Notes under the pieces: model-generated
Database searches by the model: none
What the model was told of the DNA's origin: nothing
What the model saw: only the letters and a program-made list of their open reading frames with translations
Shown: one piece after another, positions 1-60,879 of the stretch
How the letters are laid out: each line of letters begins with the position of its first letter
How positions within the stretch are numbered: the first letter of the stretch is position 1
Program-made: the position numbers and the translations under genes
Assembly (NCBI RefSeq): GCF_021028975.2
Contig: NC_059429.1
Coordinates: forward strand, 139,314,001-139,378,000
DNA length: 64,000 nt
DNA from: Sphaerodactylus townsendi
Lineage: Eukaryota
Direction: 5' to 3'

Positions 1-1430
1 GAGGCTGGAGAACGTGTGCCAAGCGCTCGCATCCACGCCCTGCTGCCCCCCCCCCCATTAAACCTCTGCAGAGCAGTCGTCCGCCCCCCCCCCCGCTTTG
101 TCTGGAGAGTCTTGGCTGGCGGGGGGGGGGAGTCTTGCTGGGCGCCTCCTGGGCTTCTCCTGCCCTTCAGCGCCCAAAGGGCGGGGGGGGGGCACCTGCG
201 AGGCTTCAGCTCCGCACCCAGCGCAAGAGGCGCCCCCTGCCGGCCGGCCGGCCTGCCACCATACAGGTGGATGAAGACGAGGCTCGCGGGGGGGGGGGGT
301 GCCGTGCGCAGAAGGCCCTGCAGGCGGCGCTGCGGAGGCGGCTCAAGGCACGAGGCCGGTCGCCGGGCTGCGCGCGCACCTTCCCCGTTTCCCGCGCGGG
401 AGAGGCAGGCGGGCAGGGAGGGAGACGCCATCATGTCGCCCTCCGCTTCGGGCCGCCGCGCGCGGGAATCGCCTCGGGACGCCGCCCCGCCCCCGTCCCC
501 GCCCCCTCGCCGCCGCCCGCCCGCCCAGTGAGTGGCGACCCCGCGGGGGAGGGGAGGGGAGGGGAGGGGCGGCGGCCTCCGGGGGCCCCGATTCATCCCC
601 CCCCTCCCCCCCTCCGCCAGGGACCGGCCCGACAGCAGCAGCAGCAGCAGCGCCGAGGAGGAGGAGGAGGAGGAGGAGGAAGGCTGGAGCGGCTCCGGCA
701 GCGACTTCGAGGAGACCCTCCGCGGCCAGGCCGGCAAGCGGCGCCCCCGGGCGGCCCTCGCGCCGCAGCAACGGGTGGGTGGGTGGGCGGGCGGGCGGGC
801 GGGCGGGCCCCGGGGGGGGAGTGGCAGAGGCAGGGGGCTCCCGGGACCCCAATGCAGAGGGCGGCAGCCGGCTCCCGCCCCCCTCCCGGCTGCGGAGCCC
901 AGCGGTTGACTGCGCCTGGCTGTGGAGGCTCGCCTGAGGGTGGTCGCGTGGAGCAGCAGCAGCAGCAGCAGCCCCGGAGGAGCCGTCTCTGGCCTGGGGC
1001 ATCTGCCCGACGAGGCCGCCCCACAGGAAGGAAGGAAGGAAGGAAGGAAGGGGCAGGGCAGGCCTCGCCCCCGGCCCCGCTGCTGGACTCCCCCCACGGG
1101 GCCCTCGGCCGGCCTTCCCAACACAGACTGTCACTGAGCGCCGCAGGAACACGTCATCTCCATCCCCCCCCCCCCCTGGCAGCGGCAGGGAAGCCCCCGA
1201 GGGGCCGGGAGGGGCCCCCAGGCCTGGCAGCGCGGCTGCCCCCCCCCCGCGGCACCCGGGGAAGGGGGCTCCGGCCGTGACACCCTGCAGAGCTTCCCCA
1301 CTGCCCCAGCCCCCCCCCCCCCCCCCCCGGGGGGGGGGGGGGGGGCCCCGCGGCGTCGGCAGCCCTCGCGTGCAGCAGTGCAGGGAGGTGTGCTGTCGAG
1401 GGCTTCCGCGGCCGCAGTCGCCGGGGGGGG
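1..1430. promoter_or_regulatory. CpG island spanning the STAG3 promoter and first two coding exons
   Basis: Very GC- and CpG-rich. TTTCCCGC at 388-395, palindromic TCCCGCGCGGGA at 390-401, Kozak-like GCCATCATG at 427-435. Confidence 0.7.
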
Positions 1431-4400
1431 GGGGGTTTTCCGGGTTGCGTGGCCGTGTGCCGGTGGCGTTCCCTCCTGACGATCCCCTGAAGATGCTGCC
1501 AGCCACGGATGCAGGCGGAACGTCAGGAGGAAATGCTACTGGGACACGGCCACCATGCAGCCCGGGAAACCCACAGCTCCTTGGCGTGGGGAGAGGGGTG
1601 GCTTCTGCTGCTCAGCCCCCCATTCCCTCCCCCTCGTTCTCCAGGGAGCCAAGCGGCTGCGCAAGGATGCCCCCCACGGCGTGGGAGCTCAGCCACCCAC
1701 TGGAGCCGGGAACCTCTTTGAGGCGGTGAAGCTGGGCAGAAGCGTCATGGAGGTGAGGCCACGGGTGGAGCAAGAGCTCTCCTGGTGGGGGGGGGGGGGG
1801 CTGGAGCCACGTGCAGTGGGAGTGGGCCCGAATGCCACCCCCTCAAGACTGTGCGGAGAGTGGTGGGCTGTGGGAGCTGCCCCTGCTTGCAGGCTCAGCC
1901 AGGAATGCCGTCCTGCCCGCTCTGGCCAAGGGCCCCGCAGAGACAGCCCTGCCTGGACTTCCTTCCCTGAGTCCGCCTGCAAGAACAGCGGGAGGCGGGC
2001 CAGGTCTTGCTCTGAGGGCTGCAGCCACTGGCGTTCCTCTGTGCTGGGCGCAGGGCTGGAGAGGAGAGGGGGGCCCTGGCACCCAACCTTTGCAGTGCTG
2101 GCCAGGGGCCCCTTCCCATTTTGGCTGGCAGAGGAAAAAGGGGAAGTCTTGCGTGCAGAATGACCTGGAGCCGCTGGCCTGCTCCTGCCCCCCCCCCCCT
2201 TTCATCACTCTGCGCTGTTATGTGACTGTTTCTTGTTCCAGCTTTCAGAGGGCCGCAGAGGGGGCGAGAGACCACCCTGGATGTGTTCTGGGAAGAAGTG
2301 CCAAGCTTAAGAGGACAGCACAAAGGGGAGGGGGTGGGTGGGCTGCAGAGCAAAAGGGGCAGAAGCGGAAAGGATGTGGGGACACAGAGGTAGTTGCAGG
2401 CAGGACTCCCTTGGGCACGTCGCCGCCGTGCTCTCCCCACCCGTTCCTCTGTTGCCTTCTTTCCTTTCCCCAAACAATTCCAGACTGTGGTTGACGAGTG
2501 GCTGGAGAGCTACAAGGAGGACCGGGAATTGGGTTTCTTGGAATTGGTCAACTTTCTGGTGCAGTCCTGTGGCTGCAGAGGTGAGTCCTGGGCGTGGCGG
2601 GTGTGTCCTGCTGCCGTCTGCTCTGCTTCCTCCCTGCTTGCAATCTCAACTTGTTTGCAGTGTTGCTCTCTCATCTTTGAGGCATCAGGTCTCCTGGATG
2701 AAGAAGCTCTTCTCAAGGGATTGATTCAGGACAAAGGACAAAACTTCGGAGCTGAATGTGTGAAATTAGTGCTAAGAGACAGACAGCGAACGCATAAGGA
2801 GGCCGCCTCATCCTGAGCCAGACCCTTGGGCTGCCAAGGCCAGCGCTGCCCACTCTCTCGCATCAGCTTCTGCCCGGCCCTTTCAGCTGGAGAGGCTGCT
2901 GGGGCTTGAACCTGCGGCCTTCTGCAGGGCCAAGCAGAGGTTCTTCTGCTAAGCCGCAGCCCCTCCCCCGTGGTGGCTTCCTTTGTCTATTTTTGCAGTC
3001 AGGTCACAACTGACTTGCAGCAGCCCTGTAGGGCTTTCGAGGCAGGAGATGTTTGGATGCGCGGGACCACGGCCTGCCTCCGCATCACAACCTTGGCATT
3101 CCGTGGAGGTCTCCTTTCCAAATACTAACCAGGGTCAGGGTGGGGAGGATGTGGCTGGCCCACGGTCAAGCTTCCAGAGTACAAATGGGGTTTTTGAACT
3201 GGGGCTTCCCAGGTTCTCACCCAGGGCCTTGACCACTACACCACCTGGCTCTCGCTGGCGGCTGTTAATCCCGCTCCTCTTCTAGAGAACAGGGTGCTAG
3301 TGCTTTCCTTTCACATCAGGCTTGTGTGGGGAGGTTAGGCCGAGAGGATACCTGGCCCAAGGTGAGCCTTGCAGCAGAGTGAACCTGGCCCGTTCTGATT
3401 TGGCTGAGCTGCATCCCAAGGGTGGGGCACACGGCCCCAGGATGTGGAAGAGGCCTGAGGACATTCTGGGAAAGCCCTTCTGTCTCCCTTCCATTTCTTT
3501 CTGGAGCTTGGGTGTGCGGCTTGTGCCTGCCAAGTGCCATTTTCTTTATTCAAATGTGTGTATGGTACTTTCCTCCCTAGCTCCCAAATTGTTGCGGCTG
3601 ATATGCCAACGTCCCTGCGTGACAGCTTGGTTGTATCAAATGTAGAAACAAAGGGCGGGACAAACTTAACTCTTATCAAACTAGAATTAGTACCTAATTT
3701 AAGAATTTTCTACAACCGAGGCATGGTAGGATTTTTCCATAGTAGAATTGGGCATGATTGGCACATTGCATAATATTCTTTAACAGGATATGACTGCGTG
3801 AAAGACCTAAATGCCAATTTTAAACAGCTCTGTTAACAGTTGGTCTCAAAAAACGTTATAATTGTAATTTGTGACCTGGTAGCTAAACATTGTATTATTG
3901 TATTACTTTTGACCACTGAGAAAACCAGTTGGCTGAAATGTATCTGCTTGTAAGGGTCAAAAAAGTGTCCCATAGGATCCTGTGGCCGTAATGGTGATTT
4001 TGTGAGCATATGGCAGGCTATCATGGTCTTTTTATAAATGTAGATGATTTTAATTTGAAATAAAAACATGTGTTTTTGATACTTAGCAGTTTTACATGTA
4101 GTGGCCCCTTGAATTACTTCTTGACCTTTAAGGTACTTAATGTATCAAGTGCAGCTCAAGGAATTTGGGCCGGCATTGAGCTGTGTCTCTCCCTGGCAGG
4201 GGTGGTGACCCACGAAATGCTGAAGAGCCTCCAGAACTCCCAGATCATCCAGCAGCTGACACAGTCCTTTCATGAGGTGAGAGCCAACGGAGCAGATAAA
4301 GTCCAAACAGATGCACTTTGTTGTGGTTCCATCCCATGGAGACCCAGCTGAGCCCCCTCCCCCTTCTCCCCCCAGGACTCGGCAGAGTACCCGCTTTCCC

Positions 4401-19400: not shown

Positions 19401-22400
19401 AGATAATGATACTATGTTTAAAGCTACAGAGATTTGGCATGAGATAAGGTTTTGGTTGTGTGGTTTTTATGTGATCCATTTATTTTATTAATATTTTAAG
19501 TTGCCTCGATTCCCCTAAAGCGGCTGATAAATACTTTAAATAAATGTCCAAAGAGCCCGGCTGGGGACACAAGTCTCTTCTGCCCCTGCTGCCCCCCAGC
19601 CTTGAAGAGCTGCTTTTATAAGCACTGAGCCTGGAGGTGGGGCTCAGGGGCGGGGCCATGCCCCCACCCACCCCTGGGGGCATGGCCACACTTCCCAAAG
19701 CCCCACCCCCTGGCCTCAGTGCTTATAAAAGCAGCTCTCCAAAGGCCGGGACGGCTGCCAGCTGGGTTCCCAGCTGGAGGGGGGCCAGGGCCAGAAGAGA
19801 CTGCCATCCTTGGCCAGGGGGCGGGGCTTAGGAAGGCGTCACCACGCTCCAGGGGTGTGTGGCCCTGCCCCCTGAGCCCTGCCCCTAAACCCACCCCACA
19901 ATAAATCTATACCTACGTCACTGCCTAATGGTGAGAGCTCAAAGAGCAGAATTCACAGTCTGTTCTCAGATACCATCAGAATTAAGGATCGCAAGCAGCT
20001 TTATGAGATGGAGTCTTAGAATTAATTGGTCCTATTTCTTTTTCTGGTTGCAAGGGCACTTTATCCCGAGCACCAGGAGCTAGAAACAAACTTCAGAAAC
20101 AAGGAAACTCCCAAAGAGCAGAACCACCAACCATCCCAAACAGAAACGGCCTCCCTTTGTCTCTTGCGTCTGTTTCACTTGCGACTCCCCTGCATGTCTT
20201 ATCATCATTGTCACACTTTATGTTTTTAGTTTTACATCCAAGCAGTTTACCTGTCCAGGGGGAATGTAATGCGTGAATCACCCCTAAGTCATTGCTGTTG
20301 CAAAAAGATGGCCAGTGGTGAGAAGGAATCCTCATAAACCTAGCATGTAATGGGCAGCAGCATAATGCTTCTTGTGCATGATCTGTCTAAACACGCAGCA
20401 GAATACAACGGTGGAGGCCTGAAATGGCAATATGGAGGTCTGTGAACAGTTGAACGAATAGCGAGGATGGAATGTCTAGCTGGGCTGCTTGTCCATTATA
20501 TCTCACAGCAGGGGGAGGTCCGTCTCAAGTGCTTACTCGCTTTGCAAGGGTTGTACCGCAACCAGGAGATGGCTTCTCGCATGGAACTCTTCACGAGCCG
20601 TTTCAAGGTAAGATGCCCATCCCTCTGGGACCTCCTCCATGCCTAGCAGATGTTGTACCACTGAGCCGAGGCCCCATCTCCAGGGCAGAATGGCCAGCCT
20701 CTGTGGAATAGTCGCCGTCGTTTGAATCTCCCTCCACGTTTCACAGAGAAGTTAAAGATGTTAAATGGCGTGAGGTGTGAGGTGAAATTGTGACCCAGTC
20801 CTTCAGCATCCCAAGTTCTGGTGAGCCCTGCCGCTGCCCACGCTGCCACGCACAAACTTCCTCTGGCTTCCTCTTGGGTACCAGAGCGTTGGGTGACCCA
20901 CCTTCCTCTAAGAAAGCGTGAGAGATTCTGTGTTGATTAAAGAGAAGGGCAGTTTGTTTGTTTGTTTGTTTGTTTGTTTGTTTGTTTGTTTGTTTATTAT
21001 TTCAATTTCTATACCACCTGATCCCCGAAGGGCTCCGGGCGGCGGACAACATAATATAAAACATAAAACATTAAACAGGAGCGAATCCAGTACACAATAC
21101 ATGGGCTCCATCAATAGAACGTCTTAAAATACTTAAAACCAGCGGTTAATAATTATTTATTTATTTTTATTTATTTTTTAAACTTTTATACCGCCCCATC
21201 CCCGGAGGGCTCTGGGCGGTGTAAGGCAGAGGGAAAACAATATAAGTAGTTAAAACATTTAAAAGCAGCGACAACCATAAAAAAAACGTTCCTAATAAAT
21301 ATAATAAATTACAGTAAAATAGATGGCGTTCAATAGTCCACTATTGTAATTCCCTCCCCTCCCCCAAAAGGGGGGGAAAGGCGTCCAGTATTCTAATCTA
21401 AAAATTCCCTCCCCCCTCCAAAAGGGAGGAATGGTGAGTCTGAGATGACAGATGGCCCAGATGTCAGGGCCGGGCCGAGGGCGGGGGCACCAACCCTTAG
21501 CATTTAAACAAAGGCGTCCAGCCTCAATTTCAACCCACCCCAAAAGAGGGAGGGGACGGCAGGCCCCTCAATATGAGGGGCTCTGATGTACCAGTGCCAG
21601 GGCAAGGAGCAAAGAGGGGGCACCGTATCAGCGGCTGGGCTCTCCAAAGGCCCGGTGGAACAACACAGTCTTACAGGCCCTGCGGAACTCGCCAAGGTCC
21701 CGCAGGGCCCGGACAGCTTCGTGTTCCACCAGGCCGGGGCCAGTGCTGTAAAAGTCCTGGCCCGTGTGGAGGCCAGCTGCATCATTGAGGGGCCGGGGAC
21801 CACCAGCAAATTGGCCTCTGCTGACCGCAGAGGCTGAGTAGGGACATATGGGGTAATGCAGTCCCGAAGGTACGACGGTCCCAGGCCACGTAATGCCTTA
21901 AAGGTCAAAACCCACACCTTGAAGACGATTCGGAATTCAACCGGGAGCCATTGCAGCTGGCGCAGCACAGGTTGAATGTGCTCTCTAAAGGCTCCTCCTG
22001 TGAGCAAGCGTGCCACTGCATTTTGGACCAGTTTTAATTTCCGAATCAACCACAAGGGAAGGCCCGCGTAGAGCGAGTTACAATAGTCCAGCCTGGAGGT
22101 GACCGTTGCATGGATCACAATGGCCAGGTCTGTTTGGGAGAGGAAGGGGGCCAACCGCTGGGCCTGACGAAGGTGGAAAAACGCAGTCCGGGTTGTAAAG
22201 GCCACCTGGGTCTCCACTGAAAGAGAAGAATCCAGGTGGACCCCCAGGCTGCGAACAGAGGAGGCCGGCGCCAATGAGACCCCCTCCCACACCGGCGGCT
22301 GGAAGTCCCCAACCTTTCCCTCACGGCCAAGCCAGAGGATCTCCGTCTTCGATGGATTCAGTTGCAATCTGCTCTGCTGTAACCAACCAGCTACCGCCTC

Positions 22401-25400
22401 CAAACAATGCTGGAGACCCGCAGGGGCAGTTCTGAGTAGGGCAGGTCTCTTCGGAGTTCAGCATTCCTGTGCTCCGGCAGCTGCTTCTGGGCTCCCTGCT
22501 TTCATTCTCTGAGGCTGTTCCAAAGCAGGGTGGGTGGGGGTGGGGAGGATTAATATCACTCTTCTGGTGCAGAGCTTGGGTCTCCCTGGGCACGCGGCCT
22601 TGTCTGTTGCCTGTCCTCTCTTACGGGCTCTGCTCCGACGCAGAATCCCACGGGGGAACCTGGGGCTAAAGTAGTTCGGGTCAGCTCCTCTGGTGGACCG
22701 CTGTTTTCCCTCTCAGCTCTTTTGGCAGCGGCAGCAGCATTTTCTCCTGAGATGATGAGAGCTACCTGAAGTTTACTCGTTTTTCTCTTTCTGCTGCTCT
22801 TTGGTTGGCCTTTCAAAGTGCTTATGCTGTGGAGGAAAACAGCCTCCCAGAGATGGCGGCTTTCGCTGCATCATCCCTGTTGAGTGAAATGATGGAAGGA
22901 CCCCCAGGGCAACTGATGCTAGAAGCTTGAATGGCACGGGGTGTAACTCTGACTCTTCTGCATGTCTTCTGTTCAAGATGGCTAATTCGGTATGTGTGGC
23001 TGCTTGTCAGTAATTTGTATGGGGAATATGCTTTCTTCTCTGCTGGGTCATCTTCAGCACGTGCATCTGGGAACGTGGCTGACTTGCCCAAATGTGAGAG
23101 AGGCAGAGCACAGCAAGCTTGTCCTTTTAAGGCAGTTGAGTCTGCCACCACCTTTGACCTCCACAGACCAGCACAGTCTACCCTCGATGGTGAATGGTTG
23201 CTCAGCAGCAGAATGAACAGTGCGTTAGGACCATGTGCTTAAGTGCTCAGATCTACAACTCTGCCTGGTCTAGATTAGAGAGAAAATGACTCTGTTTCCC
23301 CCTTCCATTTTCCCTAAGGAACAGTCATAGAATCGTCGAAGGCTTTCACAGCCGGATTCAACTGGGTGAATGCAATCTGGGCAAGCAGAACTTCTTCCTT
23401 GTCTAGCACTATCTTTGCTAGTTCCTCGGATTCGCCTCCTAAGAAGCTTGGTTCAGGTGCAGGAATTTTCCTCACCTCCTCTTGGGTGAAGACAGATGCA
23501 AAGAATTCATTCAGCTTCTCTGCAATCTCCCTGTCATCTTTTAGCACACCTTTTGTTCCTTTGTCATCTGACGGGCCTACCGCTTCCCTCGCTGGCTTCC
23601 TACTTTTGATGTACTTGAAGAACTGTTTGTTGCTGGTCTTGATGTTCGCAGCCATGCGTTCCTCATAATCCTTTTTTGCCTCCCTTACAGCTAAGTCGCT
23701 TCTCTTTTGCCACCATTTGTGTTCCCCCTCATATTCTTCATCAGTCAAACTGGACTTCCATTTTCCAAAAGACATTTTCTTTTTTCTGATAATTTCCTAA
23801 GCTTCTCTTGTTAACCATGGTGGCTTTCTTTTTGACTGGGCCTTTCCTTTCCTAACCTGTGGAACACATTCCAGCTGAGCTTTTATAACTGTTTTTAAAT
23901 AACCTCCAAGCATCTTGGATAATTTTGACTCTGTTGATTTTCCCTTTCAGCTTCCTGCGCACTATCCCCCTCATCTTTGAGAAATTTCCCTTTCTGAAGG
24001 CAAATGTAACTACATTAGTAGTTGTCACTTGTTCACATGCAGAGATACTGAATCTGACAGCATTGTGGTCGCTGTTCCCTATTGGCTCAACAACACTGAC
24101 TTCCTGCACCAGTTCCTGGGTCCCACATAGAATTAGATCGAGCATCTCCTCTCCCCTGGTTGGTTCCACAACCATCTACTCTAAGCCACAGTCATTTAGC
24201 ATATCCAGGAATGCTCTCTCCTTACTATGACCTGAACATGCATTTTTCCAGTTTATGTGGGGATAGTTAAAATCACCCATTACCACGACATTTTTGCTTT
24301 TGTTGGCCTCTCTAATTTCTTTTTCCACTTTGGTCAGGGGGACGATAATATATTCCTAATATTAAACTGTCCTTCACACCTGGTATTGATATCCACAGTG
24401 ATTCTGTAGGGGAATCAGCTCCCCCAGATATACGATGTGACACCTGGCTTTACAACAGGATACGTGAAAGGTATCTGGGAATCTTAGTAGATGACAAACT
24501 GAACATGAGTCAACAGTGTAATATGGCAGCCAAGAAAGCCAATGCAATTCTGGGATGCATCAATAAGAGTGCAGTGTCTGGACTGAGGGAATTGTACCAC
24601 TCTGCATTGATCAGAACTCACCTAGAGCAGTCCTGTGTTCAGTTCTGGGCAATACCCTCCCAATCTTAAGGAAGGAAGAACTGCTCATAACAATAATAGT
24701 CAGCAAGAGACTCAGTCTAAGTAAGGTGCACCTGCTCACCCCATTCACGGAGGTCTTCTGCTTCTCCAGATTTCCCAGTGCAAAGGATCCTCCCTCTGAG
24801 ATAAGCAGAAGTCCTGGATTCAAGTATATTGGATTGGGATTCTTAGGAAAAATTGGAAAGGGGAGAGCCAGGTACGCCTCACTGAACTCCTTCACTGGAG
24901 TGCAGCATCCAAATGGGCCAGGTGAATAGGCTGAGCATCCAGGCATTCCCTGGCTCTGGGTCCCTGCACTGCGCAGCAAAGGACTAGCGGGCCTGGGGGT
25001 CCCTCCCAGCTCCATTTCAGCTGAAGTTATTTCAAGATTTCAGTGTTACTTTTTTATGACTGTCTGTTCTCGTTTTAATGAGCTTTATGACCTCTTGTCC
25101 CTTTTGTTTACTGCTATATTTATTATTATGGAACCAGGTATAAATATTTCAGATCAGTCTGCTAGTCTCCTGTGTTTCTTAACTGGAGGGTGGCAGAGAC
25201 GCAGAGGAGAGGGCTGGGGATAGCCTTTCTTTTGCACCCTCCTCCTTGCCTCATTCCCCAGGAGCGGATGGTGTCCATGGCTCTGGACCGAGACCCCCAG
25301 GTTGCTGTGGAAACGGTCAGACTCCTGACGCTCATCCTCCAGTGAGTAGCATTCAGGTCATGGGACGGCGCGGCCGTGGCTGCAGCTGCCCTGCTTGTGT

Positions 25401-28400
25401 GCTCGACTGACTGACGCAAGGAAGCCCTTCTCTGCAGGAACACGAAGGATGTGCTCACGGACGCTGACTGCGAAGGCATCTTTCCACTTGTCTATGCTTC
25501 CAGCCGCCCCCTGGCTGTTGCTGCTGGTGAATTCTTGTACAAGAAGTGAGTGATCTTCCCTGCTTCCCCCCACCCACCCACCCACCCACCCACCCACCCC
25601 CAGTTGGCTGCAGCAGGCAGTTGTGCTTGAGTTCCCAGCCCCACTTGTCCTCCTGTCACTCAGTGCTGCCAAGGGTTCTGGCTTCTGCCCTCCCTTCCTG
25701 AAGATGGCAGTTTGCCTTGCAGGCTGTTGGCACCAGAAGCACCAGCTGGGGGAGAAGAGGAGCCCTGTGAGGGGGCGCGGGCCTTCCTGCGGCGGCTCCT
25801 TTCCTTCTTCATCGAGAGTGAGGTGAGAGGGGGCCGGCGATGTCCTGCCAGGCACCGAGGGGCTGGGGGGAGTCACGCGGGCCTTTGCTCTCCCTCGCTC
25901 TGCTCTCCGCCCTTAGTTCCACGACCACGCAGCCTACTTGGTGGACGGCTTGTGGGACTGCGCTGCCGCCCTGCTGAAGGACTGGCAGGCGCTGACGGGG
26001 CTGTTGCTGGAGGAGCCTCCTGCAGGGGGTGAGTGACTCAGGGGTGGCCTTACTTGCAGGGGGCTGGTTCTTCTGCTTGGGATGGCACATGTGTTTCTGT
26101 GGTACCAAGTCAGTGCTGGCAGCCGGCCCCTGCGGGCTCCGTCCAGTCGCACATACCCGAAGCAGATGGAAAACTGAACACCACTGAGAACTTTGCTGGT
26201 GGGCTCTGAGTGGAATTGGAGAACGGCGTTATTCAGGGAAGGGGCATGAATGTTCAACATCCCTGGGAGAGATCCCCGCCCCCCCCCCCCAAGTGCACGT
26301 TGTGGGCAGAGGGGGGAATCAAGATCTTGACTGTCCCAAGGTACTTTTGAGTCGAGGAAGGGAGGATCCCTGCCACGGCACAGAGAACCCCTCACAGAAA
26401 GGCTGGATGAGACTGCGTAGAGAAGGTCATGCAGGTGTTGGCTTTGTGGAATGGTTGCCCTCCATAGTGGAGCAGTGAGCCCACAAGGGGCTGTTCTCCC
26501 TTCACAGGTTTTGGTGACCAACAGGAAAGCACCCTCATTATGATCTTGGTGGCCAGCATACGGCAGGCTACGGAGGGACAGCCGCCTGTCGGCAGAATCT
26601 CTGCTAAAAAGGTAACAGAAAGAGGGTGGTCGCTGCCTCGTTCTGTCGTTGATCTGCTAGCCAGGGGGCATTCTCTCCTGCCTCTCTTCTGCTTGTCTGG
26701 CAGGGATTAACGGCCCAAGAGCGCAAGACGCAAGCAGAGGACCGCTTGAGACTCACCCAGTACTTCATCCCACTGCTTCCCCAGTTGTTGGCCAAGGTAA
26801 GCCCAACTGGAGATGGCCAAGGGGGTGGAGGCCAGGCGGTGGTGGAGACAGACTCAGGGGCTTTGCTTGGCAAACATACTGTTCTCCCGCACCAGCTGGG
26901 CAAGAGGGAGCATACAGATGTTAAATAATATTGGAAAGAGGGAGAGAGACCCCTTGTGCCAAGGAACAGCATGGTGATGACCTGCTGCTATGCTCTGTCC
27001 CCAACCCCAGGGAAAGGAGACCAGCCACTGTAAGGCTGCCCCTTGTATACCAGCGTTGGCAAGGCAGCGAGACAGAAGCTCACGTTGTCAGGCCAAGAAG
27101 TCCCAGCAGTGCTGGCCTGCCTTGGTCCAGTCGCCTCCAGCCGCCATCTGCGAGAGCGACCAAAGCGGTCCCATCCCTGTGGCCACATCAGAAGCTGGGT
27201 TGGAATGGACCCGGCACCAGCGCGTCCTTCAGGACTGCCCGAAGCTGTTCAGCCAAATGCAGAGCTGGGCTGTTTATTCTCTGGATCCAAAGGATCCAGC
27301 AACGGGTTTTTCAAGGTTAGATGTGCCACCTCTTCTTTTGGGGCCCCTGGAAAGACCCTTGAACTCAGGGACAAATTTATAATGCCCCACCGGAGTCCCT
27401 GAACTCACCGCCACTGCTGGCTGCCACCAGCCATGATGAGCCCGGATGAAAGGGGAACCTGGTCGTCTCACAGCATCCGTCTGGGAGAGATGGCTGGATG
27501 GGTCCGTTTGTGAGGGTGCTCAGTGGCCGAATAAGCCTAAATGATGGTGTCGGGCGAGAACTTGCAGATGTGATGGGGACCGTCTGGATGTTCTTCTTGG
27601 CAGCCTCCATTGGCCCCTCACACAACCTCATAGCTGACCTAGAAGATATTCTTTCTGCGTTGTCACAAGTCTTTCTAGAAATTTGCTCTAGTCAGTTGAG
27701 TTCCCGCTTCTTCCTTTGTAGCTCCAAGGCTGACCAGGGAGCTAGTTTGGAGTGGGGATGGAGAGTGCGCTGGGCGGGATCCTGTTAGTGGCACCAGCAA
27801 GGTTGCAGCAGTTCATCTAAGGCATTTCAGGGAGCCCTCGGATCTCACAGAGCGTTCTGGAAACCAGTTGGATCCATGAATCTCTGTGGGTGAGCCAGAT
27901 CTGCCCTCCACCTACACGGGGAGGGGCTGGAGCCCTCAGTGGGCCTCCAGAGCAAAAGGGTCCAACCCTCGCACTGTATCAACAGGAGTCGTACCAATAT
28001 CCGCCCCCAGGCCAAAGGTCAAGTCCAGGGTGTGGCTTGCTTCGTATGTTGGACCTGATGCAAATGGAGAGCGTCCCAGAGCTGCCATTAAGAACAACAG
28101 GCCCACATGGGCCTGTGTGGATATTAAAGTCCCCCGGGACTATTTGCCCAGAGAACTCCAAGGCCCAAACGGACACCACCTCCAGGAGGCTCAGCTGGGT
28201 GTCAGCTGGTGCGTTAGGAGGATGGCCCACCAGCCAGAACGCCAGAACCTCTTCCGTGTCCCAGACCAAAGCAGTCAACCACTGGTGTCTTTAGGACGGG
28301 GAGTTCCCTAACGGAGAAAGACTCCCAGATGAGCAATGCCGCCCATCCCCCGGCAGCCCTTTGTCTGTGACTGATCAGGGGCCAAGAAACCTGGGGGAGC

Positions 28401-31400
28401 GAGTACTTTCATGGTTCTCTCCCTTAACATGCACCCCCACCCCCCAAGCAGACAGAGCGGCAAAAAGGGAAAGGGCTTTGTCCAGGTATCCTGTGTCCAC
28501 CAGCCTCGCGCTTCTTTCTCAAGTGCAGCAGTGTGAGAGCCCCGTGTGTCCATGTGGCTCAGCCGGATGGATGCCCCAGAAGGCCTAACGGAGGGGTGGC
28601 TAATTCAGGTTCAGAGTTCACCTAGGACTGCCGGTAGGAAAATGCAGATGTGGAATAGACCGCAGCTGGCAGGCAGACGGCAGTCACTAGAACTGCTGCT
28701 CCCTGGTGTGGTGAAAAGCCTCAGGGCGTGGTCTCTCCGAGGGGTCCGCAGGCAAAGCTGAAGGCTTTAGACAAACACACAAGTCTCCCTTCTGGATCCT
28801 AGGCTGTTCCACCTTCAGACTGTACAGGGCTGCTCTTTCTTGTGGCCGGAGTGGATTTGATTAAATCACTAGTCAGTAATACTTGATTTAAATCATGGTT
28901 TTCTACACGCTTTTATGATCTGCTGCCATGATAGGTTTTCTCCTCCAGGGCGAGAATGATGTGATAAATCTCAGGCTATACACACACGAAGATCCCAAGA
29001 CTTGCAGAGTATTCTGCTCAAAAGGTTTCCCTTTCATCTTTACTGCTTGCTCCTCACACTTAGGTCCTCCTTGCGTAGATCTACTCCACATGAAACTGCC
29101 TTCTATTCAATTAACTTCTTGAAACTTAGCGCTTAGGAGTTCAGGGCTGATTCTGTGCACGTAGATTGCAAGGGGGCAGCGGGACTAAGGTCTTTTTCTC
29201 AGCTCCGCAGGTTACTTCGTAACGCTTTTGCTTGGAACTGAAGGTTATCTCTGCAGACGCATATTCAGAATTTTGTGAAATGCACTTGTAATAATATCTT
29301 CCAGGCATAAGAGTTGTATGGCAATTGTGAATGGACTGATGGAACTCAGTGACCCCAAAATGTAAACTTTGAATGAATGTATAGCCTTATGCTATTTAAT
29401 TAAGAACTGATCCTTGTTTCATGATGAATAATCTTTGGACTTCAATGTATCTTAAAGAGAAAACTATCTTTAGGTAGATTGTACCTGAAATAGCATTTTA
29501 TTTTTTAAAAAATCTGATTTATATAAAAAACCATGTTTTTATTTTTTAGGAAAAAATCATTGATTTTTATCCACCTTGTTTGTGGCCCTGGAGTTCTCCC
29601 TTGAAATGTTTTTTCATCAGTTTTCCCATTCAGTTGGTGATTCCATTGATGTTCTGTAATAAGACCTTCCCTTTGGGGAGGCTGTTTTCTCTCAGTTTTA
29701 TAGCTCTTCTGATTTCCATTCAGCTATAAAACCAGGCTATAAAACTGACACGCCTGCTTTTGAGTCTTCTTTTTCCTTTCCTTCCATTTTAAATTATGAG
29801 GCATTAAAGAAAAGTTTTTTCCCTCACCCAAAAAATTGTTACGTTGACTGCAGGAACCAAACTCCTCTTAATTATTAAGACTGATGATCTTGCCCTGATA
29901 AAGCAGGGGGAGGGGAGGAGGTAGGCGTGCTTCAAGTCCAACTATTCCTATGCAGTGGAGTGTTGTGGGGTTTCCGGGCTGCATGGCCGTGTTCCAGTAG
30001 CATTTTCTCCTGATGTTTTGCCTGCATCTGTGCCTGGCATCTTTAGAGTGGGTCAAAGATCCATACAACCCGGAAACATCACAACACTGCAGTGATTTCG
30101 TCCGTGAAAGCCCTCGACAATATATTCTTATGCAATTGCTTGCCAAAATATCCAGCCATGAGCTCTCAACTCTCGGGTGAGATTCAAAAGCCTTCATTTT
30201 TACCTCTTTACCCACGAGGAGAGCTGCTTCTGGCCCCATCTCTCAACCTACCCCACGGAAGTTCAACTGGTGATTTATAGCCAGCAATTGTAAATTCAGT
30301 TCCTCGGCCCAGCTCCATCCACTGGAAGTCCCTCACATGCCTGCCTCTTCGTCACACACAGAGCTGCCCAGAAGTGGATGCACGCTCCACATTTGCGTTA
30401 CTCGGATGTAGAACTCTGCCCTTGTCCTTGTTGAACGGCACCTTGTGTCCATCTGCCCACTTTCCCAGCATGTTCAGATCTCTGGTTCTGGTGGGTTTTC
30501 CGGGCTGTGTGGCCGTGGTCTGGTGGATCTTGTTCCTAACGTTTCCCCTGCATCTGTGGCTGGTGTATCACAGAGGAAAGTCTGTTTCACACTGTGTCTA
30601 AATGAGAAGGGAAAGTTTAGTGTGGTATATTGTCCATTTCCCAATGATTGGTTCCCCACCCTGGAACATGGACAATATACCACACTAAACTTTCCCTTCT
30701 CACTTAGACACAATGTGAAACAGACTTTTCTCGGTGATACACCTCTGAAGATGCCAGCTACAGATGCAGGCGAAATGTTAGGAACAAAATCCACCAGACC
30801 ACGGCCACACAGCCCGGAAAACCCACCAGAACCAGTTGAATCCGGCCGTGAAAGCCTTCAACAACACATTGTTCAGATCTCATTGAGTTCTGGTGCGTTC
30901 ACTGGTGCTGCTCCTCCCAATTGGGTGCCATCTGCAGATGTAGTGAGCAGGGCTTCCACCTCCCTCAACCAGGTAATTTATAAAAATATTGAAAAGTCCT
31001 GGGCCCAGATCCGAACCACTGGACACCTCCCTCCAATCAGACGACTGCTTTTCGGGTGAGCTCCTCCCACCAGCTCCCTGCCCATCTCGCCTAGAGTCGG
31101 TTCAGCATTCCTGCGTTCGGTTTCTGCCCGTTGCTGGCTGTGGGTGGCAGCCGCTGAGAGTCTCTCCCGTCTGTTCCCTCCTGGCAGTTCTCTGCTGATG
31201 TGGAGAAGGTGGTGCCTTTGCTGGAGGCCCCGCGCTACTTTGACCTGCGGCTGTACAGCACTGGCCGCCTGGAGAAGGTAAGGGTGGGGATGGGTGCCTG
31301 TTCGCTTTCCCTGGCCCTCTGAGGGAGTCTCCCCAGCCGTGCCCTCTGACGGTGCCGCTTGTCTCCCTCTCTCCCGGCCCCTGAAGTATCTGGAGCTGCT

Positions 31401-34400: not shown

Positions 34401-37400
34401 TGGGGATCCCTGTGTGGGGTGGGCAGGCCCCTCTGGCTTTCAGCTGGGCTGGTTCCTCGAAGACCTTGGATCTCACCTCCCTTGTGCTTCTCTTCACAGT
34501 GATCCCTGTGAGCCAGTTTACACTGGGAAAGGTTTGTGGCCCCAGGCGAGTGGGGTGGCTGAGCCTAGGTGTGAGCCTGGGCGCCCTCAGTCCTAGTGCA
34601 GTCCTCCCTTCCCCTCGCTGCCGCAGTGTCTGGTTGTTGATGCGTTCCTCTGCCTCCCCCGTGGGGCGCTCCCCTCTGGTTCCAGGCCTTTGTGCTGCTG
34701 AGCGACCTGCTCCTGGTCTTCGGCCCGCAGCTGACGCGAGGGGGGGAGGGCCAGGAGGCGCTGCAGCCCTTGGTGTATCAGGCGGAGGCTGCTCTGCAGT
34801 CCCAACTGGCCGGCTTCCTTGTGGACCACGTCTTCAGCCACCCCCTGGCTTCCGAGATGGGTGGGTATCACCCTGGGGGTGGGGGGTGGCCATGGGTGGT
34901 GGGGCTGCCTGGGGGAGGAGGCTACTGGGAGGGCAGGCCTGACCTTCCCTGGCCTTTTGCCTCAGGGGACGAGGAGCTCCAGATTGAGCAGCTGCACCAG
35001 CGCCGCCGCCTCCTGGCCGGGTTCTGCAAACTCATTGTCTATGGAGTGGTGGAGCTCAGCGCCGCATCGGACGTCTTCAAGCACTACTCCAGGGTCTGTG
35101 CGGGGCAGAGGAGCCTGGCGGTGGCGGCGGCGGCCGTGCTCCAGTGGCTGGGGGAGGGGAGCTCGGCAGGCGCCCTTGTGGGAGGTGGGAGCAGCTTAGG
35201 AAGCCCCCTCAGTGGGGCACCTCCTGCCTGGCCAGCACTATGGATGGATCGGCTTTGGTGTCCACCGTCACCCCGGATGGGCGTGGGGTTTGCATTCAGC
35301 AGCGCCCCTTCCGGGCCCTTCTCATTGTTCTGTCGCCCACCAGTTCTACGGTGACTACGGAGACATCATCAAGGAGATGCTGAATCGGGCCCGTCAGATT
35401 GACCGGACCGAGTGGGCCCACACGCTGCTTCTCAGCCTGCAGCAGGTACCGGCGAAGAGTGGAGGCAGGCCAGGGAGGCGCCGGGGGGGGGGGGGGGGGG
35501 GGGCTAAAATCAGCCCTGTGAAAATGAGTGCTGGGCCTTAGAGAGGCAGGTAAAGTCATGCTTGGTGTGGAGGAAATGGGATGGAGCCGTGTTCCCTCTC
35601 CCAGAATATTAGAAGAAGAAGAGGAGGAGGAGTTTGGATTCATGCTCTGGCTTCCTCTCCTGTAAGGAGGCTCCAGGTGGCTGACAAGCTCTTTTCCCTT
35701 CCTTTCCCCGCAACAGAGGCCTTGTGAGGTAGGTGGGGCTGAGAGAGTCCCAAAGAACTGTGACTAGCCCAAGGTCACCCAGCAGGAATATAGGAGTGCA
35801 GAAACACATCTGGTATACCAGATAAGCCTCAGCCACTCAGGTGGAGGAGGAGTGGTGATCAAACCCAGTTTTCCAGATTAGAATCTACCTGCTCTTAACC
35901 ACGACACTTAAGCCTGGCTCTCCCTGGGTGCACCCAGTAAAGCTGATAGGCAGTAAAATCTGGGAGAGTTAAAAAGAAGCGCTTCTTTGCAGTCTACAGT
36001 AATTGTGAGTTGCAAAAGGGCTTAGGTGACTTTAAAAGGGAATTAGACAAATTCATCAAAGAAGATGGGTGTACCAAAAGTTATGAGGGATGCTTGTGTG
36101 GAACATCTGTGTTCAGTGATAGTCTACCTCAGTAGCAGTGGTTGGAGGCAATGGCGGAAGAGCATAGTCTTCACATGTGGGGGCGCTGAGAGTGCTAAAC
36201 AGGGCCTTGATGGCTGCTAGAACGGAGCTCTCCTGGGAGGCAGAAGTGGCTCTCTTCCACTCTGGGCACCAAGCTCCCCTTCCTGCTCCCTCGCTCTGCT
36301 GGGAGGGGACACAGATGATGATGAAGAAGAAGACTTTATTTACAGTCAATGACCAAATAGGGACACAGATGGGGGACCACTGTTGTCCCTGCTGGTGGGA
36401 CCAGCCCTCCCCAGTGCCTTCTCCTTCCTTTGCCAAGGGCAGCTCATTTAGTGAATGTCTAAGCTATTTTCCTGTGCAGGAATTCTCAAGGTAGCTTTAT
36501 AATTGTAACGGGTTGTTACTCTGGTCATCAGTCAAGACTCAGGAAGGTTTCAAGAGCTGTATTGGAACCGTGTCATCCCAAGGCACAGGTGGCCGAAACT
36601 GAAGTTTGACTGGCCTTGGCATATACCTGGCAGTTACAGAAAGGTTCAGCCCATGATCCCCTTGCATTCCCATGATGTCAGCATTTGAAAGGACGGTGGG
36701 AATAGCGGCGTTGTTTGGGACAGGCAGTTCACTCCCTCGAAGAAGGCGGATAAGAATGAACGGGAATTTCTGCTGACCAGGTTTGCACAAGCAGGGGGAG
36801 GCCTCCTGAGCCTGGGGCGATGACAATGGCAAGGACATCTGTGGCCTTGGAGTGGACGTGCTGGCTGCCAGGCCAGGAATGGCGCAGGCCTGACCATAGG
36901 TTTATTTATTTTGAAGTCTACAAAATTATGCATGGGGTAGAAAATGTTGACAGAGAGAAATTTTTCTCTCTTTCCCCCAATACTAGAACCAGGGGACATT
37001 CATTGAAAATGCTGGGGGGAAGAATTAGGACTAATAAAAGGAAACACTTCTTCACGCAACGTGTGATTGGTGTTTGGAATATGCTGCCACAGGAGGTGGT
37101 GATGGCCACTAACCTGGATAGCTTTCAAAGGGGCTTGGACAGATTTATGGAGGAGAAGTCGATCTATGGCTACCAATCTTGATCCTCCTTGATCACAAGA
37201 GTTACCGCAAATGCCTTTAACAGACCAGGGTGATGGGAACCCAACAACGTTTCCAAGAAGGCCATTGCGTTCACATCCTACATGTGAGCTCCCAAAGGCA
37301 CCTGGTGGGCCACTGCGAGTAGCAGAGAGCTGGACTAGATGGACTCTGGTCTGATCCAGCTGGCTTGTTCTTATGTTCTTATGTTCTTATGATGCTTACA

Positions 37401-40400
37401 CTGCACTGTATTGTCGAAGGCTTTCGCAGCCTTTCACATGTAACGCACTCCTCTCTGTGAGACACCTCTGAAGATGCCAGCCACAGATGCAGGCAAAACG
37501 TTAGGAAAAAGATCTACCAGACCACGGCCACACAGCCTGGGAAACCCACAACAGCACTTATACTGCACTGCTCTTCCCAGCAAGGACCCAAAGCAACTCA
37601 CAACTTTCTCCCTGCCTCCAGTTCACTGTTACTTTTTATAAATAATAAACATGACATGTTAATGCAGATCACGGTATTACCGCAGTACGAGCACAGCGCA
37701 TTTTTCTGGGCCAGCCCCTTATGACATAGTCCTGTTTCCTTCATGAAAATGCTCTCCTGAGAAATTGGGTTTTATGTAGTTTGTAACTTTCCTGGGAGCC
37801 TTCGTGACCTCCTTGGGCCGGCCGTTTCTCAGGGTGGGGGCCCAGTTCAGAGAAAGCAGATGGGTGGCTGCTGATCTTGCCCAGTTGCACGGCGGCTCTT
37901 GCAGAAGGCCCTGCTGAGACAAGCGTGTTGGGAGGTGGTTGGAGGTGCTCTTGTGGAAGTGAGTGTCCAAGTTCATGAAGGCCAGTGCCCTTGACTGATG
38001 GGCAGCCAGTGGAGTGCCTGCAGAACGTGTGTGCGTGCTCCAACCAGCTCCTGAGAATCACTGAGCTATTGGTGTTTTGCACCAGCTGACGTCTCCAAAT
38101 TGAGGGAGGCCCATGTAGATNNNNNNNNNNNNNNNNNNNNNNNNNNNNNNNNNNNNNNNNNNNNNNNNNNNNNNNNNNNNNNNNNNNNNNNNNNNNNNNN
38201 NNNNNNNNNNNNNNNNNNNNNNNNNNNNNNNNNNNNNNNNNNNNNNNNNNNNNNNNNNNNNNNNNNNNNNNNNNNNNNNNNNNNNAAGCTGTTCAGTGCT
38301 GCTCAGAAGGACCATTCCCAGCTAGCCCAACGTTCCTTTCTAGTTGCTGACGCAGCTGCTTCTGGAGCAGGGGCCGGCAGGCATGGAGTCCAGCGCCTTC
38401 CTCGAGATCCGAGACCTGGCCCGGCGATTCTCGCTGCTGTTTGGGCTGCATCGGCTGCAGAACCGCTCGGCCCTTGTCAAGCTGCACAAGTGAGGCTGCT
38501 GCCTTCTCCTGAAGGGGGGTGGGGGAGGGTGGCCTGGCGCCAGGGAGGCGGTTTCCGGGGAGAGACGGAGCAGTTCTACAGCTGGGTAATGCCGTGCTTG
38601 GCGGTCTCTTCCTTATGCAGGGATGGGATCAGGTTTGCTTTCCAGGCCCCCGCATCTCCCAGTTCCAAGCTGGGACTCGTCCACTTGCCATTCCTGGAGC
38701 TGCTGAGTGAGTTTTCCCCACGGCTGCTGAATCCGGACAAAGCCTTCCTGTGAGTGTCCTGACGGCGACGGCACTTTGAGCTTAGCCGTGCGGGGCTCTG
38801 CCTTTTGAAGTCTGGTGGGTTGGTGGGGTCAATTGATCGGTTGGGCTGCTTGAATTCCGTGGGTTTTTTGGTTTTCCTTTTAAATCTTTTTGGGATAGCT
38901 TCAGGGTGGGTGGAATGAGAGGGAGTGGGTTGGCTGGTGGGTGGGTGGCAGGTGGACATACGAGGGACACCTAGGCAGGATTTGGTGGTAGGAATTGAGC
39001 CAGTGAGATTCTGCAGGGATTGATGTTCAGGCCCTCTTAAATTGTGTGGCACCGGAGATCGGCTGCAAAATGCCCAAGTTCGGTGGATGTTACCCAGTTG
39101 TTGAGAATGGTGAGAGCAGAAGCTGATGGGGGGGGGGGGGGCTCCAAAAGGATCCCTTCAAAGTGGATAAGTGGACAACAGAGTGGCAAATAATGGTACA
39201 TAAGTGCAAAACGATGCACACAGAATTGCCACACATGTTGTGTCTGTGGGCCCTCAAGGCACAACTCACTCGTGGGAGCCTCGCGGGGCTCCTCAGGTGC
39301 AGGGGACACGCCGAGATGGTTCTCCATTGCTGGCCTCTGTGTAGCAACCCAGGAGTTCCTCGGTGGCCTCCCATCCCAGGCTGACCCCGCTGAGATCTGG
39401 CCAGGCTGGGCTCCCCTGGGCATCCAGGTCAATGCAAACGGCAACATCCTGACTCTAAAAATCTGCTGATGGGATGTGGGCCAGATCGGCCAGAAGAGAT
39501 GTCGCGGTTCTCTCTGTCCCATCCCAGGTCAGAGCAGCTGTGGAGCTGCCTGGAACAGATGGGGTTAATTGGATGGAGCATCCATGCTGGTGTCTGGAAA
39601 TGAAACATGTCAGTCACCCAGGAAAGGTGTTTTTTCTCCTCCCTGTGGCTGTTTGTGCCTCATGCCTTCCTTTTTTGTGCATTTCCTACTACCTGGGAAC
39701 GATGCTGGGCATTCCAGATGTGCACCTTGGGAGACAAGAGTCCTGTACCACATACCCTATCGTCTGAACTTCAGGCCTCCTGTGTATGTGTGTGTGTGTG
39801 GGGGGAGGTTGACTCTCTTGAGTTGCAGTTGGGAAGGGGTGTCACTGACTGTGGCCAGAGTCGGCACTTTGGGCTATGCTGGGGATGCTGCCTCAACCGA
39901 AAGCCCAGGCTGGAGCCCCCCTGTCTTGCAGGGCCTGTTGAACTGGACTGCGTCCCGCAGGGCCCTGGTCTCAGCTGACAGAGGCCCACCCTGACTCTCT
40001 TGGGGCTAGGGGCCACAAAGGTTGCTTCTGGCAGAATGGGGGGAATATGGAGAGAGGCAGTCCTGTAGGCACAGCGGTCCCAAACTGCTCAAGGCCTTAC
40101 AGGTTAAAACCTAAACCTTGAACATGACCCAGAATTCAACCAGTAGGCAGTGCAGGTGGAGAAGCGCAGGATAAATATGTGCTCTGACTGGGGTCCCTTC
40201 TGGACCGGTTGTAGCTTCCGGAGTCGGCCTGCGAGCTCCCGCAGTCCAGCCTGGAGGTGACTGTTATGTGCATCATTGTCACCAGGTCTGGCCAAAGAGG
40301 TAGGGAGCCAACAGGCTAGCCTGGGAAAGGGGGAGAAAGCCCACCATCTGGACCTCTGTTGACAGGGAGGACACCAGGATCACGCCCAGCTTTTGACAGG

Positions 40401-45334: not shown

Positions 45335-45340
45335 TTTATT
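45335..45340 (-). terminator. AP4M1 polyadenylation signal (AATAAA)
   Basis: TTTATT on + strand, ~135 nt downstream of the AP4M1 stop. Confidence 0.6.
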
Positions 45341-45368
45341 AGCCCAGCATTACTAATGTTTCCTTGTT

Positions 45369-45378
45369 AATAAATAAA
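45369..45378 (+). terminator. Candidate STAG3 polyadenylation signal (overlapping AATAAATAAA)
   Basis: Followed by GT-rich TGTTTTTGGTTG. It is the first AATAAA I found after the candidate terminal exon at 44255. Confidence 0.5.
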
Positions 45379-45473
45379 ACATGTTTTTGGTTGAAGCAGC
45401 CTCCCTGGGTCCAAAAGGAAACTGCTTTCAGGGCGGAAGAGGCGCATCTTCAGGCCGCCGTTAGAAAGAAGCG

Positions 45474-49545: not shown

Positions 49546-49704
49546 GAGCCCGCTCTGCGCATGCCCCGCTCCCCGGGGCGGGGCCCTTCGCGCGTCACGC
49601 GGCAGGGGGCGGGGCGGGGCCGCGTTTCGCGCCACTTTCCGAGGAACCGGCGGCGGGAAGGGAGAGCGCGGCCAGCGGAGGAGCCCGACTACGGCGGCGG
49701 CGGC
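49546..49704. promoter_or_regulatory. Bidirectional CpG-island promoter shared by AP4M1 and MCM7
   Basis: 159 bp between divergent ATGs. E2F TTTCGCGC at 49625-49632, NRF1-like TGCGCATGC at 49556-49564, several GGGGCGGGG boxes. Confidence 0.85.
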
Positions 49705-56634
<6,930 letters not shown>

Positions 56635-56715
56635 GCCCACCAGGGGAGGACCCCCCTGCTCTCTTCCGAGCTGGGCTCCGACCCCCACTTAAAAAAATTG
56701 GTTTTGTTTTCCTGC

Positions 56716-56721
56716 AATAAA
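56716..56721 (+). terminator. MCM7 polyadenylation signal
   Basis: AATAAA ~80 nt after the TAA. Confidence 0.75.
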
Positions 56722-57273: not shown

Positions 57274-57344
57274 TAAGCAGCCCTGGTTTCTTATTCAGCT
57301 CCCCACTAAATTCACTTGCAACCTGATGCCAGGTTTCAGGGAAC

Positions 57345-57475
57345 CATCTAAAAGGCATCTGATTTTGAGTGACCGAGATAAGGGCACAGGTGCAGGTAAA
57401 ACATCAGGAGAAAATACTACTGGAAACCCAACAACACACCCTAGTGATTCCGGCCATGAAAGCTTTAGACAATAC
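57345..57475 (+). mobile_element. Degenerate Penelope-like terminal fragment
   Basis: cacaggtgcaggtaaaacatcaggagaaaat...gattccggccatgaaagctttagacaataca. Confidence 0.5.
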
Positions 57476-58088: not shown

Positions 58089-58106
58089 CTGGGAGGCCGG
58101 CAAAGC

Positions 58107-60879
<2,773 letters not shown>

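What the first reader, a model, noticed from the sequence alone, without database searches (positions are those of the whole stretch)
30742..30783. Minimal hammerhead ribozyme rebuilt from several repeat copies inside STAG3 introns
Seen: 30742-30783 CCT-CTGAAGA-T-GCC-agctacagatgca-GGC-GAAA-T-GTT-AGG; 37465-37505 has AAAA-C-GTT-AGG; 1484-1527 has GGAA-C-GTC-AGG; the antisense arm at ~30534-30561 has GAAA-C-GTT-AGG but lacks CTGAAGA. The consensus is CCT CUGAAGA U GCC[loop]GGC GAAA C GUY AGG. That gives the CUGANGA/GAAA/NUH core, stem I CCU:AGG, stem II GCC:GGC and a palindromic AACGUU in place of stem III. Known: Penelope-like elements carry minimal type I hammerheads thought to cleave as dimers. 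Inference: each of the three sense copies has a different lesion in or next to the core, consistent with CpG decay or selection against cleaving STAG3 pre-mRNA.
Basis: partly seen in the sequence, partly recalled or inferred. Interest (0 to 1): 0.7.

Follow-up and report, generated by a model that had tools for sequence, protein, structure and literature searches.

The report
Decayed Penelope retrotransposon hammerhead ribozyme copies
The motif is a real minimal hammerhead ribozyme sequence carried by a Penelope-type jumping gene that has tens of thousands of copies in this reptile genome, and the damaged copies inside this cohesin gene most likely decayed by ordinary mutation rather than being disabled to protect the gene.

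Summary
The motif is real at all three sites. It is the minimal type I hammerhead (HHR) at the pLTR/ORF junction of a Poseidon-type Penelope-like element. RT and GIY-YIG lie upstream in long copies. The ORF's ATG starts at core A9, as in Anolis PAc, whose HHR self-cleaves with protein help (PMC11167929). The genome holds 2,791 exact and 48,756 near copies, so broken copies are the norm. The focal copy is one arm of a TSD-flanked inverted insertion in a 4.4-kb intron and is predicted to be locked in a hairpin. Two lesions are CpG transitions, and only one of them hits the catalytic core. The third copy drifted AT>GC. The antisense copies here are equally broken. In 1.4 Mb of oriented introns there was no depletion (37 versus 37.7 expected) and no sense bias (core intact 17/31 sense, 19/34 antisense). 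Side finding: 32 of 32 inverted pairs carry exactly one tail. Verdict: known kind, low interest.

The parts
30742..30782 (+). Minimal type I hammerhead motif, subfamily A: stem I 30742-44/30780-82, CUGAAGA 30745-51, bulged U 30752, stem II 30753-55/30769-71 (extended by 2 bp past an A.A mismatch), GAAA 30772-75, predicted cut after U17 at 30779. Differs from the family at 30759 (loop, C>T) and 30776 (position 15.2, CpG C>T)
30751..30753 (+). ATG of the element ORF (A9, bulged U, G10.1 of the ribozyme); here only the first ~39 codons are present
   Evidence: the ORF runs from this ATG into the RT-protein N-terminus in L216, L209 and L212
30645..30869 (+). Sense arm: 5'-truncated pLTR with the ~33-nt tail (30836-30869), ending at about ORF +118
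30482..30643 (-). Antisense arm, tailless (ends at about ORF +85); a 12-nt deletion removes the CUGAAGA strand; C11.1>G
30471..30482 (.). Left copy of the 12-bp target-site duplication
30870..30881 (.). Right copy of the 12-bp target-site duplication
37395..37570 (+). Second insertion: 14-bp TSD (1 mismatch), inverted tail-only arm at about 37408-37432, tailless sense arm with HHR 37465-37505 carrying G12>A at 37495 (CpG). Lies in the intron between the donor at ~35446 and the exon at 38344
29943..30134 (-).
1391..1575 (+). Old subfamily-B inverted insertion: tailed antisense arm 1391-1475, sense HHR 1484-1527 with A13>G, a 3-nt duplication and a broken stem I; substitutions almost all AT>GC. 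No clear TSD
57383..57475 (+). Decayed 3' fragment of the same family (partial HHR plus tail)
26795..31186 (+). GT-AG intron of the cohesin SA gene (likely STAG3) that holds the focal and the 29943 insertions
   Evidence: contig of run X4 joins 26794 to 31186 (cut +2)

Best explanation
These are 5'-truncated, dead insertions of a Poseidon-type Penelope retrotransposon whose terminal repeat carries a minimal type I hammerhead motif, which likely works only for the active element and likely decays neutrally once inserted. Shown: the motif lies 3' of an RT plus GIY-YIG ORF and overlaps the ATG of the next ORF copy; it has tens of thousands of genomic copies; it is kept between subfamilies while its flanks diverge; the insertions are head-to-head pairs with TSDs. 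Inferred from Anolis PAc and from folding: on its own the RNA prefers an inactive register (core CUGA paired to U-H-A-G, 1.5-2.3 kcal/mol below the ribozyme fold) and lacks a monomeric helix III. Cleavage after H17 would therefore need two copies pairing through the ACGU palindrome, with the element protein as chaperone, as in tandem element transcripts. A lone intronic copy would rarely cut. The focal copy is also predicted to be zipped into a ~170-bp hairpin with its own antisense arm, so it is probably harmless to the host pre-mRNA. The lesions are what methyl-CpG deamination (30776, 37495) and probably GC-biased conversion (1484 copy) would leave.
For: RT (FVDD) and GIY-YIG upstream of the motif in long copies (PF01541 E=2e-4 at 22.1 bits, just under the 22.6 cut-off); 28 of 30 long copies carry the motif at the 3' end. 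The ORF starts at the ribozyme ATG; the cut site lies 26 nt after the start codon and tailed ends fall at +114..118, matching PAc (26 bp; RT start +111-118; PMC11167929). Subfamily A versus B: 30 nt upstream 23-30% identical, motif 93-98%, 30 nt downstream 60-67% (2 A x 3 B copies). In 59 intronic A+B copies, non-CpG core positions differ 22/586 versus non-core motif 83/1561 (p=0.15), and CpG sites differ 14-30%. Orientation in 1.4 Mb of six + strand genes: 37 near copies versus 37.7 expected, 17 sense and 20 antisense; core intact 17/31 versus 19/34; fully intact 10 versus 10. The ribozyme fold costs 45 kcal/mol in the whole focal insertion. An intronic hammerhead cut is reported not to block splicing (PMC2995048, passages citing Dye 2006 and Fong 2009).
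Against: No cleavage was measured here. The three subfamilies show no compensatory changes in stems I or II, and 32 of the 41 nt are also protein-coding, so part of the conservation could be protein-level. Solo copies lean antisense (23 versus 12, p=0.09) and solo core-intact copies are 2/8 sense versus 7/12 antisense (p=0.20). Xenopus retrozyme copies are reported as under-represented in introns (10.64898/2026.07.22.740005, Results). The orientation test used six long genes, not STAG3-like germline genes where the element protein may be present.
Confidence: 0.87

Rival explanations
1. Host selection removed or crippled sense-oriented ribozymes because they would cut the STAG3 pre-mRNA.
For: All three sense HHR copies in the gene carry a change. 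Among solo intronic copies, 12 are sense and 23 antisense, and core-intact solos are 2/8 versus 7/12 (neither significant). Mild intron avoidance is reported for Xenopus retrozymes (10.64898/2026.07.22.740005).
Against: 94% of near copies genome-wide are inexact. Both antisense HHR arms in this gene are broken too. The focal copy keeps a full catalytic core and is hairpin-locked instead. Ten fully intact sense copies lie in the 1.4 Mb of introns tested. A contig of organism B joins the tail of the focal insertion to its right flank, so the insertion was likely tolerated since before the two species split.
Confidence: 0.08
2. In this lineage the motif is no longer a working ribozyme; it is conserved only as the ORF N-terminus, translation start or protein-binding site.
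For: No covariation across subfamilies; the inactive fold is predicted as MFE; subfamily A has a GUU site whose U17 can pair with A14 (6-bp duplex). In PAc, HHR mutants did not affect insertion in vitro and no RNA-seq read ends mapped to the cut site (PMC11167929).
Against: The 9 non-coding nt CCU-CUGAAG are shared by all three subfamily majority lines while the sequence just upstream is unrelated. Third codon positions in the motif are fixed between A and B. The near-colinear Anolis homologue cleaves, with C3G/G8C rescue (PMC11167929).
Confidence: 0.15
3. One copy has been co-opted as a regulator of STAG3 splicing or RNA level, like the CPEB3 intronic ribozyme.
For: The focal copy keeps the catalytic core and the insertion appears shared with organism B.
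Against: It is 96-98% identical to dispersed family members with ordinary changes, has lost helix III strength (self-duplex -1.2 versus -5.5 kcal/mol) and is sequestered. No evidence of locus-specific conservation was obtained.
Confidence: 0.02

Closest known systems
PAc / Poseidon_Ac of Anolis carolinensis (PMC11167929)
   Same: HHR at the pLTR-ORF junction; ATG at the start of stem II; cut site 26 nt after the start codon; tail ending at about +111-118; RT plus C-terminal GIY-YIG. The PAc RNA 3' of the HHR printed in its Fig. S1 is colinear with subfamily B, about 80% identical by my eye count over ~90 nt.
   Different: Different squamate genome with at least three subfamilies; the young subfamily A has GUU rather than GUC at the cut site. 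I could not see the PAc HHR letters themselves (figure and gbk file unreadable). No activity was measured here.
Metazoan min-HHR of Penelope-like elements (PMC4209133)
   Same: Type I; no monomeric helix III; unpaired nucleotide between 9 and 10.1; G10.1-C11.1 pair; palindromic 15.2-16.2; thousands of dispersed single copies, with opposite-strand pairs 100-700 bp apart; reported in turtle and snakes.
   Different: Stems are shorter here: helix I 3-4 bp versus 4-5, helix II 3+2 bp with a mismatch versus 7-8 in Schistosoma.
Non-LTR retrozymes (10.64898/2026.07.22.740005)
   Same: pLTR-derived HHR repeats in reptiles; a tandem array of 109-nt units with intact HHRs exists elsewhere in this genome (L037).
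   Different: The window copies are dispersed head-to-head insertions with TSDs, not head-to-tail arrays.

Membership tests
Minimal type I hammerhead (min-HHR) | CUGANGA, GAAA and NUH core in type I order | tested here: met
   Family sequence (2,791 exact copies) and the focal copy; not met in the 37465 (G12A) and 1484 (A13G) copies
Minimal type I hammerhead (min-HHR) | Helix II closed by G10.1-C11.1 with a bulged nucleotide after A9 | tested here: met
   P(stem II) 0.96-1.0 for isolated motifs
Minimal type I hammerhead (min-HHR) | Helix I flanking the core | tested here: inconclusive
   3 bp (A) or 4 bp (B) are possible, but predicted P is only 0.09-0.18 and an inactive register is the MFE; no covariation
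Minimal type I hammerhead (min-HHR) | Palindromic 15.1-16.1 allowing an intermolecular helix III | tested here: met
   ACGU in the family; duplex -3.1 (B) and -5.5 kcal/mol (A); weakened to -1.2 in the focal copy. The MFE of two tandem units of L037 forms it
Minimal type I hammerhead (min-HHR) | Self-cleavage after H17 | not testable with these tools
   Shown only for the Anolis homologue, with protein (PMC11167929)
Rfam hammerhead families | Covariance-model match | tested here: not met
   No hammerhead hit at E<=10 in the window
Penelope/Poseidon PLE | Single ORF with RT and C-terminal GIY-YIG | tested here: met
   (GIY-YIG 0.5 bit under the Pfam cut-off; RT recognised by its motifs, no Pfam RT hit on the 323-aa piece). 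All copies read carry stops or frameshifts
Penelope/Poseidon PLE | pLTR overlapping the ORF start, partial tandem arrangement | tested here: met
   L207, L216, L209, L212: HHR ATG runs on into the ORF N-terminus
Penelope/Poseidon PLE | Inverted 5'-truncated copy, 30-40 nt tail at one end, TSD | tested here: met
   32 of 32 pairs have one tail; TSD>=7 bp in 24 of 32 versus 23 of 300 random
Penelope/Poseidon PLE | RT phylogeny inside the Poseidon clade | not tested
   No reference RT set on hand; assignment rests on similarity to the PAc RNA and on layout
Non-LTR retrozyme | Head-to-tail tandem HHR repeats | tested here: not met
   Window copies are dispersed and head-to-head; met only at L037 elsewhere

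The most novel reading that the evidence does not exclude
The tail is not optional but obligatory on exactly one arm. Every head-to-head Poseidon insertion is made by priming both ends of the cut target once each, one at the distal RT start (about +117) and one at the proximal start (about +75 to +90), possibly by a dimeric RNP. The resulting hairpin switches off both ribozymes in any host transcript, letting tens of thousands of hammerheads sit in introns unpunished while solo and tandem copies remain visible to selection.
Probability: 0.35. Interest if true: 0.55.

Novelty: new member of a known kind. Interest (0 to 1): 0.24.

Why it matters
The ribozyme class, its host element and its activity in a lizard are published, so the finding itself adds one more genome. 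Two by-products are useful. First, a test showing that intronic min-HHR copies are broadly tolerated in sense orientation. Second, a strict one-tail-per-inverted-pair count (32/32, then 17 clear plus 1 ambiguous of 18) that gives a concrete, testable constraint on the unsolved Penelope integration mechanism. The literature describes the tail only as optional or often at one end (PMC3846280, PMC8557442).

Tried and rejected
Rfam scan: no hammerhead hit; the miRNA-type hits are hairpins of other repeats. RNA holder search: no RNA holder listed. One run of unknown kind gave a spliced contig, which I used only for intron borders; contigs cannot show cleavage ends. Laying contigs on the focal stretch gave no empty-site joint, and the joints listed came from paralogous copies. 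Inferring host orientation from T/A skew around exact solo copies was uninformative (12 loci, three of them one array; mean -0.047 +/- 0.041). A loop II / upstream pseudoknot was considered (6-nt complement in subfamily A) and rejected because the upstream sequence is unrelated in B. The 8 C>T at 15.2 among the top-scoring loci was not used, because those loci were picked by likeness to the focal copy and one row was mis-anchored. The intact-status lines had an index error and were redone. One search timed out and was redone. TAL-effector hits are short HEAT-like chance matches and were ignored. The oriented-intron set stopped at 1.4 Mb, all + strand genes. Paper searches 'hammerhead+gecko+Penelope' and 'Helitron+Penelope+captured+squamate' listed nothing relevant by title; the library lacks most subscription papers.

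Full report
Observation. The three sense motifs and the antisense arm read as described. Against the family sequence, the focal copy (30742-30782) differs at 30759 (loop II) and 30776 (position 15.2), and the 37465 copy differs only at 37495 (G12>A). The 1484 copy has A13>G, a 3-nt duplication and a mismatched stem I. The window also holds an antisense copy at 29965-30048 with G5>A, G12>A and G16.2>A, and a fragment at 57383-57475. Rfam finds no hammerhead. The host gene is a + strand cohesin SA gene (PF24571), about equally distant from human SA1 and SA2 over one exon, with an MCM gene downstream. Calling it STAG3 uses recalled synteny. A contig of run X4 is spliced at GT-AG joints and skips 26795-31186, so the focal and 29943 insertions are intronic; its loose end places the 37465 copy in a later intron. 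The 1484 copy is intronic by exon inspection only.

What it is. The 41-nt motif occurs exactly 2,791 times and within three mismatches 48,756 times in the 1.81-Gb genome, evenly on both strands, with 0 in the reversed control. Longer copies carry an RT with the FVDD motif and a GIY-YIG domain upstream (PF01541 E=2e-4); 28 of 30 such loci have the motif at their 3' end. In L216, L209 and L212 the frame that begins at the ATG formed by A9, the bulged U and G10.1 runs on into the N-terminus of that protein; L207 does the same with a frameshift. This is the layout of Anolis PAc. In PMC11167929 (parts 1-2 of 4 of the text read; supplements 1-2 gave little text; figures and the gbk file not visible) the ORF begins at stem II, the cut lies 26 bp after the start codon, RT starts at +111-118, and the HHR cleaves only with protein, with C3G/G8C rescue. 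Here 26 nt separate the start codon from the predicted cut, and tailed ends fall at +114 to +118. The PAc RNA in its Fig. S1 is colinear with subfamily B at about 80% by eye. PMC4209133 (parts 1-2 of 4 read) defines this min-HHR class, reports it in turtle and snakes, and finds no monomer and weak dimer cleavage. The genome is inferred to be a squamate from this likeness.

Anatomy of the focal insertion. A 12-bp TSD (30471-82 and 30870-81) frames a tailless antisense arm (30482-30643) and a tailed sense arm (30645-30869). Folded whole, it forms one long hairpin; stems I and II have probability 0 and the ribozyme fold costs 45 kcal/mol. The 37465 and 29943 insertions are also TSD-flanked inverted pairs; the 1484 one is an inverted pair without a clear TSD. 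Isolated intact motifs form stem II (P about 0.97) but prefer an inactive register in which core CUGA pairs with U-H-A-G, 1.5-2.3 kcal/mol below the ribozyme fold. This prediction fits the protein dependence of PAc. The 30776 change weakens the dimer helix from -5.5 to -1.2 kcal/mol (self) or -3.7 (with an intact partner) but leaves the catalytic core.

Conservation. Between subfamilies A and B the 30 nt upstream are 23-30% identical, the motif 93-98% and the 30 nt downstream 60-67% (five copies). The motif was therefore kept in the active lineages, although 32 of its 41 nt also code for protein and no compensatory pairs were seen. Among inserted copies it decays without regard to function: non-CpG core 22/586, non-CpG non-core 83/1561 (p=0.15), and the four CpG positions 8/57 to 17/56 (subfamilies A and B, 59 copies, 6 C copies left out). 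The lower rate than downstream (230/2392) is confounded by subfamily mixing. The 1484 insertion differs from a close B copy by 10/10 and 12/12 AT>GC changes (6/8 to 20/21 against two other copies), with its CpGs kept. The window lies about 53 kb from the end of a 139.4-Mb contig, so GC-biased gene conversion is the likely cause (inference).

Test of selection. I located six long + strand genes by Sushi and LDLa exon clusters and fetched 1.4 Mb inside them. They hold 37 copies within three mismatches against 37.7 expected from the genome average, 17 sense and 20 antisense. Of 99 profile hits, 65 span the motif (34 partial hits dropped; about five of the 65 align poorly): 31 sense and 34 antisense; core intact 17/31 versus 19/34; fully intact 10 versus 10. 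Paired arms are balanced by construction, so solos are the sharper test: 12 sense versus 23 antisense (p=0.09), and core intact 2/8 versus 7/12 (p=0.20). In pairs with both arms scored, only the sense arm was intact in 4 and only the antisense arm in 2. A 2026 preprint (10.64898/2026.07.22.740005; abstract, passages and part 1 of Results read; its supplements not available) reports mild intron avoidance of Xenopus retrozymes (44% still intronic). Passages of PMC2995048 cite in vivo work showing that a hammerhead cut in an intron does not stop splicing, whereas a fast HDV ribozyme does. With 94% of near copies inexact, and both antisense HHR arms in this gene broken, the three lesions need no special cause.

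Side result. All 32 head-to-head pairs in the intron set have exactly one tailed arm (20 antisense, 12 sense); TSDs of 7 bp or more flank 24 of 32, against 23 of 300 random sites. In 30 loci picked by exact motif, 18 were paired: 17 clearly one-tailed and one (L039) ambiguous. The four pairs in the window also have one tail each. Passages of PMC3846280 and PMC8557442 describe the tail as optional or often at one end; I saw no strict count in them. One priming event at each of the two RT start sites would explain the rule (inference).

Verdict. A real motif of a known kind. Interest 0.24.

Noticed in passing
L091-L190, L221-L260; L031-L060; window 1391-1575, 29943-30134, 30471-30881, 37395-37570: Head-to-head inverted pairs carry exactly one ~33-nt tail: 32 of 32, then 17 clear plus 1 ambiguous of 18, and 4 of 4 in the window.
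   Followed up: partly
L191-L204, L211; L067, L070, L072, L074: A near-full Poseidon ORF plus HHR sits inside an element with Helitron-like ends (recalled hallmarks: 5' TC, 3' hairpin plus CTAG), flanked by a short direct repeat. 15 of 30 loci share the 5' junction region, so the retroelement was probably copied as cargo of the host element.
   Followed up: partly
L037:1328-2893 (G000:C1 about 4.70 Mb): Tandem array of 109-nt tailless pLTR units (about 13 copies), several with exact hammerheads; two adjacent units are predicted to form the dimer helix III. A retrozyme-like, possibly active array.
   Followed up: partly
window 1391-1575: Old insertion with almost purely AT>GC substitutions near the GC-rich 5' end of the gene, close to the contig end; likely GC-biased gene conversion.
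   Followed up: partly
window 30882-30884: ATT directly follows the right TSD, matching the 5'-ATT-3' cleavage preference reported for PAc; single observation.
   Followed up: no
window 16987-17124, 19595-19750, 54738-54777: Palindromic MITE-like hairpins that give sub-threshold miRNA-family hits in Rfam.
   Followed up: no
window 6011-7351, 21504-22457, 23314-24230, 36911-37376, 56990-57277: LINE-type RT fragments (CR1/L2-like by recalled motifs) in introns; the 37465 insertion lies just after the 3' end of one.
   Followed up: no
window about 44000-62000: Neighbouring genes: MCM P-loop exon (PF00493); AP4M1-like and COPS6-like ORFs recognised from recall.
   Followed up: partly
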